From Candidatus Hydrogenedens sp. (GTDB lineage: Bacteria; Hydrogenedentota; Hydrogenedentia; Hydrogenedentales; Hydrogenedentaceae), in NCBI GenBank assembly GCA_049968235.1, contig JBMFRC010000047.1:1-780 (forward strand): DNA of 780 bases. The letters are read 5' to 3'. This document shows positions 1 to 780 of this stretch, piece by piece. Position numbers and translations under genes: made by a program. Under the pieces are notes generated by a model. It did not search any database and had not been told where the DNA came from. It worked only from the letters and a program-made list of their open reading frames with translations. Position 1 is the stretch's first letter; the number at the start of each line of letters is the position of its first letter.

Positions 1-109
1 TTAATTCATTAATAGCATTTGTTTTAATCATTCTATTACAATGTTTATCAACAATATTTGCAATCTTAGTTTCAAATTTTTTACCTTTGTTTTTGTTATA
101 ATTTGACAT
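1..109 (-). CDS. Gene A: 5' end (N-terminal 36 aa) of a minus-strand CDS running off the left edge. Hand translation: MSNYNKNKGKKFETKIANIVDKHCNRMIKTNAINEL... Hypothetical protein, possibly the N-terminal helix of a RecU/Hjc/YraN-like PD-(D/E)xK nuclease.
   Basis: The reverse complement of 1-109 reads ATG TCA AAT TAT AAC AAA AAC AAA GGT AAA AAA TTT GAA ... with no stop through to the window edge. The ATG (complement of 107-109) is the first ATG after an in-frame stop (complement of 122-124). Codon position 1 is about 83% purine (30 of 36), which is coding-like. The overlapping plus-strand frame is F/I/L-rich with about 36% purine at position 1, the typical shadow of a K/N-rich gene. The motif N-K-G-x-x-F-E-x-x-I-x-x-x-x-x-K-H echoes the N-terminal 'N-R-G-x-x-L-E..L' of RecU, 'K-G-x-x-x-E-R-E-L..L-E-K-H-G-F' of Hjc and 'G-E-x-L-A-x-x-Y-L' of YraN, but only 36 aa are visible and the catalytic core is outside the window. 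The fragment was probably missed by the ORF track because of a length cutoff. Confidence 0.4.
   Translation of the reverse strand, partial: MSNYNKNKGKKFETKIANIVDKHCNRMIKTNAINEL
94..102 (+). promoter_or_regulatory. Candidate extended -10 promoter element TGTTATAAT (TGnTATAAT consensus) for gene B, with a weak -35-like TTCAAA at 71-76 (20-bp spacer, suboptimal). Predicted TSS is about 109-111, inside the palindrome, giving a leader of about 13-15 nt.
   Basis: Exact match to the extended -10 consensus, read from the sequence. Its position relative to the gene B ATG (124) is appropriate. Caveat: TATAAT-like strings arise frequently by chance in DNA of about 20% GC. Confidence 0.3.
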
Positions 110-126
110 AACTAACGTTAGTTATG
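107..126. promoter_or_regulatory. Perfect 20-bp palindrome CATAACTAACGTTAGTTATG (central ACGT, containing AACGTT). Its two ends are the divergent start codons of gene A (CAT on plus = ATG on minus) and gene B (ATG). Candidate operator for a dimeric DNA-binding protein and/or an 8-bp-stem, 4-nt-loop RNA hairpin that sequesters either start codon.
   Basis: Read directly from the sequence: 107-116 CATAACTAAC is the exact reverse complement of 117-126 GTTAGTTATG. It is the entire intergenic space between the two divergent ORFs plus both start codons. It lies 5 bp downstream of the TGTTATAAT extended -10 at 94-102, where a TSS or operator would sit. Confidence 0.5.
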
Positions 127-540
127 ATGAATGTAATTTTAAATATAATAACAAGAAATATATTAAACAAAGTTTTTATTATGTTTGGTATAATGAGTAT
201 TTCATTAATTGGATTAGGTATATATTCTTACAAATATTATAAATTAAAAACTGAAAATCAAATATTACAAGCACAAGTTAATTCTCTACAACAAAATTAT
301 AACATGTGCAAATTAGATCTTGAAAATGTAACTAATGAATACAACAAATTACAAAATTTACATAACAAAAAACTAAAGAATTGCTATACTACAGTAAAAC
401 AAACTCAAGACAAATGCTTAAAAGAATATTATAATAAAACAATTAAAGATTTAAACTTAAAACCTGAAGATTTGCAAAAAAAACAAATAGAACAATCTGA
501 TGATCAGCTTTTAAACCAGTTAAATAATCTATTCAATTAA
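124..540 (+). CDS. Gene B: complete 138-aa small bitopic membrane protein. It has a short N-terminal tail (1-18), one TM helix (about 19-36, IMFGIMSISLIGLGIYSY), a K-rich juxtamembrane stretch KYYKLK, a roughly 5-heptad amphipathic coiled coil (about 44-85), a Cys-containing linker (C62, C87, C98) and a C-terminal helix (about 105-137). No Trp. It could be an i-spanin(Rz)-like, FtsB/DivIC-like or other membrane-anchored coiled-coil protein, and the family is not assigned.
   Basis: This is the ORF-track ORF. An open frame of 138 codons is very unlikely by chance in 20% GC DNA, where stop codons occur at roughly 0.1 per codon. Codon position 1 is strongly purine-biased. Hydrophobic residues recur with 3,4 spacing at L48, V52, L55, Y59, C62, L66, V69, Y73, L76, H80/L79 and L84, the a/d pattern of a coiled coil. 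There is no lipobox and no signal-peptidase motif. No SD (GGAGG-like) is seen upstream of ATG 124. In-frame alternative starts exist at 127, 181 and 193; 181 would start the protein directly at the TM helix. Confidence 0.7.
   Translation: MMNVILNIITRNILNKVFIMFGIMSISLIGLGIYSYKYYKLKTENQILQAQVNSLQQNYNMCKLDLENVTNEYNKLQNLHNKKLKNCYTTVKQTQDKCLKEYYNKTIKDLNLKPEDLQKKQIEQSDDQLLNQLNNLFN
142..170 (-). promoter_or_regulatory. Possible sigma70-like promoter for gene A on the minus strand: -35 TTGTTT (complement of 165-170), a 17-bp spacer, and -10 TATATT (complement of 142-147). The predicted TSS near 134-135 would give a leader of about 25 nt containing the palindrome.
   Basis: Hexamers and spacing were read by hand from the reverse complement of 110-180. 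The -10 matches TATAAT at 5 of 6 positions, and the -35 matches TTGACA at 3 of 6. It lies inside the 5' coding region of gene B, as expected for tightly packed divergent genes. It is weak evidence because such matches are common in AT-rich DNA. Confidence 0.2.
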
Positions 541-551
541 TTTTTTTGTTG

Positions 552-780
552 CTACATATAGTATATCACATTTACAATTGGTTCATCTCTTTCTATTATA
601 ACAACCTTTTCTGTAACTATACCTACATTATTAACTTCTGTTATTGATACTTTTTTGCCATTATATGCTTGTTGCTTATTACGTATATAGTTTTTAGTTA
701 AAAATGGATATTGCCCTTCTTTTGCAAATTTAATAAAAGTAGCATTAACTACTTCAATATCATTAGTATCTACTTTTTGT
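552..780 (-). CDS. Gene C: 3' end (C-terminal 75 aa plus stop) of a minus-strand CDS entering from the right edge. Hand translation: ...QKVDTNDIEVVNATFIKFAKEGQYPFLTKNYIRNKQQAYNGKKVSITEVNNVGIVTEKVVIIERDEPIVNVIYYM*. Hypothetical protein, family not recognised.
   Basis: The reverse complement of 552-779 is open for 75 codons and ends at TAG (complement of 552-554). The first codon positions are purine-rich. No competing plus-strand ORF is reported for 541-780. The fragment is truncated by the window, so it was probably below the ORF-track length cutoff. Gene C's stop lies only 11 bp from the gene B stop, a convergent arrangement. Confidence 0.55.
   Translation of the reverse strand, partial: QKVDTNDIEVVNATFIKFAKEGQYPFLTKNYIRNKQQAYNGKKVSITEVNNVGIVTEKVVIIERDEPIVNVIYYM

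What the first reader, a model, noticed from the sequence alone, without database searches (positions are those of the whole stretch)
124..540. Orphan plus-strand gene B for a small TM coiled-coil protein wedged between two opposite-strand genes
Gene B (138 aa) is the only plus-strand gene in the window, and it is packed tightly between its neighbours. It lies 14 bp from the divergent gene A start, and 11 bp separate its stop from the convergent gene C stop. This is the layout of an inserted or accessory cassette rather than an operon member. Its product has one N-terminal TM helix followed by a coiled coil of at least 5 heptads. Cys62 sits at a heptad d position, which is compatible with a disulfide-linked parallel dimer as in Rz-type i-spanins. 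Two more Cys (87, 98) and an acidic C-terminus follow. This architecture is shared by phage i-spanins, FtsB/DivIC/FtsL septation proteins and some membrane-anchored effector or sensor subunits of defence systems. No embedded or overlapping Rz1-like lipoprotein ORF was found by scanning the +2 and +3 frames (all ATG-initiated frames stop within 14 codons or fewer), and the FtsB-type C-terminal beta-motif is not evident, so it may be a distinct family. Being divergently paired with a nuclease-like gene across a palindromic operator makes a two-gene nuclease plus membrane-protein module plausible. This is a hypothesis, not a demonstrated system.
Basis: partly seen in the sequence, partly recalled or inferred. 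Interest (0 to 1): 0.55.

Follow-up and report, generated by a model that had tools for sequence, protein, structure and literature searches.

The report
Spanin-like phage membrane coiled-coil protein
Gene B is a real, conserved gene of an AT-rich hot-spring phage that carries its own multisubunit RNA polymerase. It encodes a small membrane-anchored coiled-coil protein with three invariant cysteines that looks most like the inner-membrane half of a phage "spanin" lysis complex, but no partner gene was found, and it is not an inserted defence cassette.

Summary
A 138-codon ORF lies at 124-540. It is 14 bp from the divergent gene A and 11 bp from the convergent gene C, and no embedded ORF is present. 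It is a real gene: dN/dS is 0.17-0.23, and the longest ORF in 2000 shuffles is 106 codons.

The product has an N-terminal hydrophobic helix (residues 17-35), a roughly 70-residue coiled coil, a Pro-containing break and a short C-terminal helix. Cys62, Cys87 and Cys98 all sit on the hydrophobic seam. They are invariant in the only distant homolog found among 1.84 billion representative proteins (about 40% identity).

Both lineages are hot-spring phages with split multisubunit RNA polymerase genes. Both keep the same 11-gene block around gene B, so it is not an inserted cassette. Gene A is a T5 D14/RusA-like recombination nuclease. The palindrome is not conserved, and PADLOC, Pfam and PDB searches give nothing.

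The top PHROG hits for both lineages are Rz-like i-spanin families (E = 1.7e-5 and 8e-4). Lambda Rz scores against foreign spanin families in the same range. Architecture-preserving shuffles reach only E of about 0.01.

No o-spanin, endolysin or holin was found in about 35 kb of held sequence.

Best reading: an i-spanin-like envelope protein (confidence about 0.4). The function is inferred, not shown. Interest is modest.

The parts
124..540 (+). Gene B, 138 codons plus a TAA stop: small bitopic membrane coiled-coil protein
   Evidence: ORF. dN/dS 0.17-0.23. Homologs P0001-P0006. Top PHROG hit phrog_739, Rz-like spanin, E=1.7e-5.
172..231 (+). Codons 17-36: hydrophobic N-terminal transmembrane or signal-anchor helix (VFIMFGIMSISLIGLGIYSY)
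   Evidence: Kyte-Doolittle mean of 2.04 over residues 17-35. Helical with pLDDT of about 90. A hydrophobic segment is kept in P0006.
244..453 (+). Codons 41-110: continuous coiled-coil helix with a conserved hydrophobic seam
   Evidence: AF2 helix 2-110. The seam residues are identical or conservative in both lineages.
307..309 (+). Cys62 codon (TGC), heptad d position, invariant
382..384 (+). Cys87 codon (TGC), on the seam after the stutter, invariant
415..417 (+). Cys98 codon (TGC), 11 residues after Cys87 and on the same helix face, invariant
454..489 (+). Codons 111-122: Pro-containing low-confidence break (NLKPEDLQKKQI)
   Evidence: AF2 pLDDT below 50 at 117-124 and non-helical at 111-122. 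An indel lies here in the alignment with P0006.
490..534 (+). Codons 123-137: short conserved C-terminal helix (D..L.QLN..F)
   Evidence: AF2 helix 123-137. D127, L130, Q132, L133, N134 and F137 are invariant.
110..123 (.). A/B intergenic spacer, a perfect 14-nt palindrome AACTAACGTTAGTT (20 nt with both start codons, 107-126)
   Evidence: Conserved in L001-L006 but absent in L007.
541..548 (+). TTTTTTTG directly after the gene B stop: the gene-end motif of this phage group
   Evidence: Same position in L001 (5477-5484) and L007 (10412-10420). Present 1-7 nt after the stop of 22 of 38 genes.
1..109 (-). Gene A, N-terminal 36 codons of a 153-aa PD-(D/E)XK nuclease (context, not part of a module with B)
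   Evidence: The full-length relative hits PF24608 at 1.2e-10 and phrog_244 at 3.6e-13. T5-like D14 relatives.
552..780 (-). Gene C, C-terminal 75 codons plus stop of a 191-aa protein with no family match (context)
   Evidence: Full length in L001 5493-6068. No Pfam or PHROG hit. 68% identical between lineages.

Best explanation
Gene B encodes a bitopic membrane protein of a lytic, jumbo-phage-like virus from hot springs.

Anatomy. The N-terminal helix (residues 17-36) anchors it in the cytoplasmic membrane. The remaining 100 or so residues project outward as a parallel homodimeric coiled coil. The three seam cysteines (62, 87, 98) can lock that dimer with interchain disulfides. A Pro-containing hinge and a short conserved C-terminal helix form the distal tip.

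Proposed function. This is the anatomy of an Rz-type i-spanin. I therefore propose that it works as the inner-membrane arm of an envelope-spanning lysis complex, whose tip binds an outer-layer partner and helps to breach the outer envelope at the end of infection.

Shown: the gene is real and under purifying selection; the TM helix, the long helix, the break and the short helix; the invariant seam cysteines; weak profile similarity to i-spanin families; the phage context.

Inferred: the N-in/C-out topology, the dimer, the disulfides, the partner and the lysis role.
For: 1. Architecture matches the published description of Rz: a class II membrane protein whose periplasmic domain has two helical coiled-coil segments joined by a linker, with homotypic intermolecular disulfides (PMC6139136, read). 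Here: TM 17-35, helix to residue 110, break at 111-122, helix at 123-137.
2. The three Cys are invariant across two lineages that are about 40% identical, and all lie on the a/d seam.
3. The top PHROG hit of the window protein is phrog_739, Rz-like spanin, at E=1.7e-5 over nearly the whole profile (positions 6-119 of 122); phrog_214 is second. The divergent homolog P0006 independently has phrog_1152 (8e-4) and phrog_739 (0.033) on top.
4. Calibration. Lambda Rz hits the same foreign spanin families at only 6e-6 to 4.5e-3, and phrog_739 at 4.5e-3.
5. Controls. Eight sequences that keep the TM segment but permute or shuffle the tail reach at best E=0.0086. The native order therefore adds about 10 bits.
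6. B is one of the two fastest-evolving genes in an otherwise well-conserved block: 38% against 58-89% for most neighbours. From general knowledge, this is typical of lysis and envelope-contact proteins.
7. T4 is a precedent for spanin genes that lie far from the holin and endolysin genes (PMC6139136).
Against: - No o-spanin gene is embedded in, overlapping or adjacent to B.
- The only lipoprotein candidate (L001 3563-3880) lies 1.2 kb away on the other strand, outside the conserved block. It has homologs only in lineage 1.
- No endolysin or holin was recognised in about 35 kb of held sequence.
- The spanin hit disappears when the TM segment is removed, and architecture-only controls still hit spanin families at E of about 0.01-0.07. 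The similarity is therefore largely architectural.
- hhalign against lambda Rz gives a probability of 1%.
- Flanking charges do not decide the topology.
- Small residues at -3/-1 (G-L-G in the window protein, S-T-G in P0006) leave a cleavable signal peptide possible.
- The host, and whether it has an outer membrane, is unknown.
Confidence: 0.4

Rival explanations
1. A membrane protein with another envelope role. Candidates are superinfection exclusion, a lysis-timing regulator (antiholin or holin-like), or a secreted or signal-anchor-release periplasmic protein. Under this reading the outward-facing disulfide-linked coiled coil binds a host or phage envelope component rather than an o-spanin.
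For: The same anatomy and conserved Cys as in the best explanation. No spanin partner and no lysis neighbours were found. Small residues at -3/-1 at the end of the hydrophobic segment in both lineages are compatible with signal-peptidase cleavage (sequence). The protein evolves fast.
Against: No PHROG or Pfam hit to holin, antiholin or exclusion families. The best hits are all spanin families.
Confidence: 0.3
2. A membrane tether that faces the cytoplasm, similar in architecture to phi29 p16.7 (N-terminal anchor, coiled coil, C-terminal interaction domain). It would hold the phage replication, recombination or transcription machinery at the membrane, in keeping with its neighbours (resolvase, RNA polymerase subunits).
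For: The gene sits inside a conserved block of DNA and RNA metabolism genes. The tail is Lys-rich, with 14 K+R in 98 residues. There are slightly more K/R after the TM segment than before it (sequence). The p16.7 comparison comes from my own knowledge and was not tested here.
Against: Three invariant cysteines on a coiled-coil seam are better explained by an oxidising compartment. No DNA-binding or other domain was detected. The top profile hits are spanins.
Confidence: 0.15
3. A phage-encoded mimic of the FtsB/DivIC/FtsL divisome proteins that interferes with host cell division.
For: The architecture is the same: an N-terminal TM segment plus a short coiled coil.
Against: There is no DivIC/FtsB/FtsL Pfam or NCBIfam hit at E<=1 or E<=0.1. 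The coiled coil (about 70 residues) is much longer than the divisome leucine zipper. There is no divisome synteny, because the context is a phage.
Confidence: 0.04
4. One reading: an inserted accessory or defence cassette in which the membrane protein pairs with the divergent nuclease through a palindromic operator.
For: The two genes are divergent in both lineages. A perfect palindrome fills the spacer in lineage 1.
Against: The whole 11-gene block is syntenic, so the pairing is not specific. Gene A is a T5 D14/RusA-like phage recombination nuclease. PADLOC gives only a coiled-coil DndD artefact at E=0.0037 for one member and nothing for P0006. The palindrome is absent from lineage 2. Composition and the gene-end motif are native to the phage.
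Confidence: 0.03

Closest known systems
Rz-type i-spanins (lambda Rz; PHROG families 739, 1152, 214 'Rz-like spanin')
   Same: It has an N-terminal TM anchor and a mostly helical coiled-coil ectodomain in two parts joined by a hinge. It has conserved cysteines suited to homotypic interchain disulfides. It is of similar size (138 aa against 117-153 aa) and is phage-encoded. Its weak cross-family profile similarity is of the same strength as that between genuine i-spanin families (PMC6139136).
   Different: There is no embedded, overlapping or adjacent o-spanin gene and no lysis cassette nearby. It has three seam cysteines, whereas only 9 of 526 i-spanins have three (Table 8 of PMC6139136). It shows no detectable similarity to lambda Rz itself. 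The host envelope type is unknown.
T4 PseT.3/PseT.2 separated spanin pair
   Same: T4 is a precedent for spanin genes placed among nucleic-acid metabolism genes, far from the holin and endolysin (PMC6139136, Fig. 8 legend). The i-spanin is small (117 aa).
   Different: In T4 the two spanin genes are still adjacent, and the cysteines are in the o-spanin rather than the i-spanin. Here no adjacent partner exists and the cysteines are in the TM protein.
FtsB/DivIC/FtsL
   Same: Bitopic, with an N-terminal TM segment and a coiled coil.
   Different: No family match. The coil is much longer. The seam carries cysteines. The context is a phage.
phi29 p16.7 membrane anchor of replication (from my own knowledge, not tested)
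   Same: A small phage protein with an N-terminal TM segment, a coiled coil and a C-terminal dimerising part, located near DNA metabolism genes.
   Different: The p16.7 C-terminal domain is cytoplasmic and binds DNA. No such domain was detected here, and the conserved cysteines argue for an extracytoplasmic location.

Membership tests
Two-component spanin, i-spanin subunit (Rz-like) | Single N-terminal transmembrane domain | tested here: met
   Kyte-Doolittle mean of 2.04 over residues 17-35. Helical in AF2. A hydrophobic segment is kept in P0006.
Two-component spanin, i-spanin subunit (Rz-like) | Class II topology (N-in, C-out) with an uncleaved anchor | not testable with these tools
   Flanking K/R counts are 2 on the N side and 3 on the C side in both lineages, which does not decide. 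A G-L-G / S-T-G motif could be a signal-peptidase site. DeepTMHMM or SignalP, or PhoA/LacZ fusions, are needed.
Two-component spanin, i-spanin subunit (Rz-like) | Periplasmic domain dominated by helices or coiled coils, in two parts joined by a linker | tested here: met
   AF2 helix 2-110, break at 111-122, helix at 123-137. Conserved 3-4 seam.
Two-component spanin, i-spanin subunit (Rz-like) | Cognate o-spanin (outer-membrane lipoprotein) gene embedded in, overlapping or directly following the i-spanin gene | tested here: not met
   No plus-strand ORF of 20 aa or more lies inside B. The next gene is convergent. The lipobox scan finds only L001 3563-3880 (-), which is 1.2 kb away and confined to lineage 1.
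Two-component spanin, i-spanin subunit (Rz-like) | Periplasmic cysteines that allow homotypic intermolecular disulfides (present in 507 of 528 systems) | tested here: met
   Cys62, Cys87 and Cys98 are invariant and on the seam. Disulfide formation itself was not tested.
Two-component spanin, i-spanin subunit (Rz-like) | Sequence or profile membership in a described i-spanin family | tested here: inconclusive
   phrog_739 at 1.7e-5 and phrog_214 at 0.018. P0006 hits phrog_1152 at 8e-4. This matches the cross-family range of lambda Rz. However, architecture-only controls reach 0.009 and the tail alone gives no hit. hhalign against lambda Rz gives 1%.
Two-component spanin, i-spanin subunit (Rz-like) | Phage of a diderm host, with a lysis role | not testable with these tools
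   The host is unknown. No endolysin or holin lies in the held ~35 kb. The rest of the 45-126 kb contigs could not be fetched.
Unimolecular spanin (T1 gp11-like) | N-terminal lipoprotein signal plus a C-terminal TMD | tested here: not met
   There is no lipobox, and the TM segment is N-terminal.
FtsB/DivIC/FtsL septation proteins | Match to PF04977 or the related Pfam/NCBIfam models | tested here: not met
   No such hit at E<=1 in Pfam or at E<=0.1 in NCBIfam.
FtsB/DivIC/FtsL septation proteins | Cellular divisome gene neighbourhood | tested here: not met
   All ten loci are phage contigs with split RNA polymerase, tail sheath and tail tube genes.
Anti-phage defence systems (PADLOC models) | Match of B or its neighbours to a defence protein model | tested here: not met
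   Only DndD at E=0.0037 on the coiled-coil region of one member, and nothing for P0006, A or C.
Class III holin (T4 T) or T4 RI antiholin | Match to holin or antiholin families | tested here: not met
   No holin or antiholin family appears among the Pfam or PHROG hits at E<=1.

The most novel reading that the evidence does not exclude
A partner-less, or distantly partnered, Rz-like arm: a triple-disulfide-locked coiled-coil membrane protein. In thermophilic jumbo-type phages with their own RNA polymerases it would breach the outer envelope either alone or with a non-adjacent, non-canonical partner. One candidate is the N/Q-rich lipoprotein 1.2 kb away in lineage 1; another is a host outer-layer protein. 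That would be a new genetic and mechanistic variant of envelope disruption.
Probability: 0.12. Interest if true: 0.5.

Novelty: new variant of a known kind. Interest (0 to 1): 0.27.

Why it matters
If it is a spanin arm, it would extend spanins to an undescribed group of very AT-rich hot-spring phages with multisubunit RNA polymerases. It would also be a case where the two spanin genes are not linked, which current spanin finders assume they are (PMC6139136). That bears on the open question of how 'spanin-less' phages breach the outer membrane.

Taken alone, the gene is a small orphan membrane protein whose function is only inferred. A specialist would not find it very surprising. The surrounding phage group is probably of more interest than gene B itself: no IMG/VR or GenBank relatives were found in the searches run, no Shine-Dalgarno sites, and a T-run gene-end motif that abuts stop codons.

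Tried and rejected
- DNA and protein searches of GenBank phages with the window and with gene B gave no match.
- Scans of IMG/VR viral contigs with B, the RNA polymerase beta-like protein, gene C and gene A alignments gave no relatives.
- The GTDB genome scan gave none. The metagenome scan returned only contigs already held.
- The PDB profile search gave only chance coiled-coil hits; the best was TIM10 at E=0.02.
- Foldseek of the AF2 model against viral structures gave nothing, as expected for a single long helix.
- Rfam on the window gave no match.
- The sigma-70 promoter scan was at the shuffle expectation, and no hairpin terminators were found.
- The AR9 late-promoter consensus AACA-N6-TA/G (PMC5312081) is not present upstream of gene B in either lineage.
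- The JGI name of one cluster member, 'predicted nuclease with TOPRIM domain', was rejected. No Toprim or nuclease domain appears in Pfam, so the name is probably a coiled-coil artefact.
- The 105-aa lipoprotein was tested as a conserved o-spanin partner. Its homologs occur only in lineage 1, so this is not established.
- I considered a tandem-fusion AF2 'dimer' and did not run it. Only pLDDT and secondary structure are returned, so Cys-Cys contacts could not be read.
Full report
**1. What is in the window**

The window is 780 nt with 21.7% G+C, evenly AT-rich throughout. It holds three genes.
- Gene A runs on the minus strand from 109 to beyond position 1 (MSNYNKNKGKKFETKIANIVDKHCNRMIKTNAINEL).
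- Gene B runs on the plus strand over 124-540 (138 aa).
- Gene C runs on the minus strand, with its stop codon at 552-554 and its body extending past 780.

The A/B spacer is a perfect palindrome, AACTAACGTTAGTT. It extends to 20 nt when the two mirrored start codons are included. No plus-strand ORF of 20 aa or more lies inside gene B, so there is no embedded Rz1-type frame.

The window is identical in length to a 780-nt NCBI MAG contig, and its gene B product is identical to the protein on that contig. That contig is labelled 'Candidatus Hydrogenedens sp.' (protein MGC8739803.1, P0003). Everything below shows that the sequence is viral, so that bin assignment is probably wrong.

**2. Is gene B a real gene?**

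Yes, on four counts.
- At this base composition a codon is a stop with probability 0.088, so 138 open codons have a probability of about 3e-6. In 2000 shuffles the longest internal ATG-ORF was 106 codons, with a mean of 36.
- Six related contigs are about 95% identical in DNA and keep the frame intact. Their indels fall only in the B/C spacer.
- Nei-Gojobori dN/dS between the window and three of these contigs is 0.17-0.23.
- The missing Shine-Dalgarno site is not an argument against expression. None of 38 called genes in the two reference loci has an SD-like tetramer.

**3. Anatomy of the product**

- Residues 17-35 (VFIMFGIMSISLIGLGIYS) are strongly hydrophobic, with a Kyte-Doolittle mean of 2.04.
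- AlphaFold2 run on the single sequence gives one continuous helix over 2-110, a low-confidence break at 111-122 (NLKPEDLQKKQI) and a helix at 123-137. Mean pLDDT is 82.
- Read directly from the sequence, positions 41/45/48/52/55/59/62/66/69/73/76/80 form a 3-4 seam: L N L V L Y C L V Y L H. After a four-residue stutter the seam continues at 84/87/91/95/98/102 as L C V Q C Y.
- Cys62 (heptad d), Cys87 and Cys98 (one 11-residue repeat apart) all sit on the seam.
- The 'acidic C-terminus' is marginal, with 12 D+E against 14 K+R in the tail.

**4. Relatives and context**

An exhaustive HMMER search of 1.84 billion representative proteins found only two clusters. One is the window's own cluster (91-100% identity). 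The other is P0006, 136 aa, 43% identity, E=4.8e-22. Word-indexed searches with the single sequence and with a profile found nothing more. In the alignment the seam, the three cysteines and the C-terminal helix motif D..L.QLN..F are invariant.

Both clusters lie on phage contigs of 7 to 112 kb found in the same samples. One of these samples, SRR6311222, is listed among terrestrial hot-spring metagenomes in PMC8468003.

The contigs encode:
- split multisubunit RNA polymerase pieces (Rpb1 and Rpb2 domains);
- a tail sheath and a tail tube.

The nearest GenBank relatives of the beta-like subunit are at only 22-29% identity. They include AR9, phiR1-37, YerA41 and Staphylococcus jumbo phages.

The order A(-) B(+) C(-) D(+) E(-) F(+) G(+) H(+) I(+) J(-) K(-) is identical in the two lineages. 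Protein identities between the lineages are A 72%, B 38%, C 68%, D 37%, E 58%, F 89%, G 86%, H 59%, I 51%, J 66% and K 79%. The genes upstream of A are unrelated in the two lineages.

Gene B is therefore a fixed but fast-evolving member of a conserved block, not an inserted cassette. Strand switches are frequent across these loci, so 'the only plus-strand gene' is an effect of the small window.

**5. The nuclease-module and operator ideas**

- The full-length gene A product (153 aa) matches PF24608 (PDDEXK_15) at 1.2e-10 and phrog_244 (RusA-like Holliday junction resolvase) at 3.6e-13.
- Its only GenBank phage relatives are the 'D14' proteins of T5-like Aeromonas phages. It is an ordinary phage recombination gene.
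- PADLOC gives only a DndD coiled-coil hit at E=0.0037 for the window protein and nothing for P0006, A or C.
- The palindrome is kept in the 95%-identical contigs, which says little at that level of identity.
- The palindrome is absent from the 29-bp spacer of lineage 2, and its core TAACGTTA occurs only once in 15 kb.

The defence-module and palindromic-operator readings are not supported.

**6. What does gene B resemble?**

- Pfam, NCBIfam and PDB sequence searches give nothing significant. The best results are DUF948 at E=0.028 and TIM10 at E=0.02. No DivIC/FtsB/FtsL hit appears.
- Against PHROGs, the top hit of the window protein is phrog_739 (Rz-like spanin) at E=1.7e-5, covering profile positions 6-119 of 122. 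Next is phrog_214 (Rz-like spanin) at 0.018.
- P0006 independently has phrog_1152 (Rz-like spanin, 8e-4) and phrog_739 (0.033) as its top hits.

I calibrated these hits in two ways.
- Eight control sequences kept residues 1-40 and either permuted the tail in 7-residue blocks, shuffled it or reversed it. They still hit Rz-like spanin families in four cases, at E=0.0086-0.065. The tail alone (41-138) hit none. Much of the signal is therefore architectural, and the native order adds about 10 bits.
- Lambda Rz, taken from NC_001416, hits its own family at 1e-79. It hits foreign spanin families only at 6e-6 to 4.5e-3, including phrog_739 at 4.5e-3, phrog_1152 at 1.5e-4 and phrog_214 at 1.1e-4.

Gene B thus resembles i-spanin families about as much as genuine i-spanins of different families resemble each other. 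A direct profile comparison with lambda Rz gives no similarity beyond the TM segment (probability 1%).

**7. Fit to the spanin definition**

The definition is taken from PMC6139136. Rz is a class II inner-membrane protein whose periplasmic domain has two coiled-coil helices joined by a linker. It carries homotypic intermolecular disulfides and binds the o-spanin through its C-terminus. Of 528 two-component systems, 507 have periplasmic cysteines. T4 keeps its spanin genes away from its holin and endolysin genes.

Gene B meets the TM, helix-linker-helix and cysteine criteria. It fails the criterion of a linked o-spanin gene.
- Nothing is embedded in it, and the next gene is convergent.
- Lipobox scans of 15-20 kb in each lineage find only one credible lipoprotein (L001 3563-3880, 105 aa, MNIVKIPSKKKIIALTFALSLFTFGC...).
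- That lipoprotein is 1.2 kb away on the other strand, outside the conserved block.
- Its homologs occur only in lineage 1.

No endolysin or holin was recognised in about 35 kb of held sequence.

**8. Verdict**

The most likely mechanism is a membrane-anchored, outward-facing, disulfide-lockable coiled-coil homodimer that acts like an i-spanin arm (confidence about 0.4). The gene, its anatomy, its conservation and its phage context are shown. The topology, dimerisation, disulfides, partner and lysis role are inferred.

Rivals, with confidences:
- another envelope function, or a secreted protein: 0.3;
- a cytoplasm-facing tether for replication or transcription: 0.15;
- a divisome mimic: 0.04;
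- a defence cassette: 0.03.

The protein cannot be filed as a member of the two-component spanin family, because the linked o-spanin was tested for and not found. It is best described as a new sequence family with i-spanin-like architecture, which I rate as a new variant of a known kind. Interest is modest (0.27).

Noticed in passing
window 541-548; L001 e.g. 127-134(-), 2055-2062(-), 5477-5484(+), 10207-10214(+); L007 e.g. 2285-2300, 5067-5083, 10412-10420: A gene-end motif. T6-8 followed by G (usually TAA|TTTTTTTGC[A]) starts 1-7 nt after the stop codon, on the same strand, in 22 of 38 genes of the two phage lineages. Convergent pairs share TTTTTTGCAAAAAAAA. T6+G sites number 26 and 39, against 10 and 13 in shuffles. 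No hairpin terminators were found. It looks like a hairpin-less terminator and/or an upstream promoter element for the phage's own RNA polymerase.
   Followed up: partly
L001 upstream of 3880(-), 7165(-), 7223, 8569, 10249, 10949; L007 upstream of 12124(-), 12188, 13535, 15205, 15911: A conserved TAAATTA box lies 6-10 nt upstream of the ATG in 11 of 38 genes, including the RNA polymerase beta-like genes and the lipoprotein. It is often preceded by the T-run-GC element and an AACA-like stretch. Genes A, B, C and D lack it, so they belong to a different promoter class. It does not match the AR9 early or late consensus quoted in PMC5312081.
   Followed up: partly
L001 and L007, all called genes: None of 38 genes has a Shine-Dalgarno-like tetramer in -20..-4. 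Translation initiation in this phage and its host appears to be SD-independent.
   Followed up: partly
L001 3563-3880 (-); L002 8503-8832 (-): A candidate lipoprotein of 105-109 aa. It has a signal peptide with a TFGC/TIGC lipobox, an N/Q-rich repeat linker (NQY/NQF) and a C-terminal part with two Cys. It lies just outside the conserved block, has homologs only in lineage 1 at 70-100% identity and matches no family. It could be a separated o-spanin or an exclusion lipoprotein.
   Followed up: partly
whole window: The window is identical in length to a 780-nt contig binned into a 'Candidatus Hydrogenedens sp.' MAG, and its gene B product is identical to the protein on that contig (MGC8739803.1). 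All longer relatives are phage contigs, so the binning is probably a mis-assignment. One JGI cluster member is named 'predicted nuclease with TOPRIM domain', which no search here supports.
   Followed up: partly
L001 6108-6437 (+); L007 11111-11437 (+): Gene D is a second small plus-strand coiled-coil protein (about 109 aa) on the other side of gene C. At 37% identity between lineages it evolves as fast as gene B. It matches no family, and its start codon is called differently in different contigs (108 aa against 85 aa).
   Followed up: no
L002 1-4697 (-): Four tandem genes of about 486-515 aa (the first cut by the locus end). The three whose starts are held begin with MKK and have a TTTTTTTTGC...AACAA upstream region. 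They have no Pfam or PHROG match (two of them were scanned), and whether they are paralogs was not tested. Possibly structural or receptor-binding genes.
   Followed up: no
L001, L002, L007 (RNA polymerase genes: L001 755-2041, 7223-10206, 13478-14404): The phage group carries split beta and beta-prime-like RNA polymerase subunits at only 22-29% identity to AR9, phiR1-37, YerA41 and Staphylococcus jumbo phages. No relatives were found in IMG/VR with the patterns used. G+C is 24-27% although the source is a hot spring. This looks like an undescribed lineage.
   Followed up: partly
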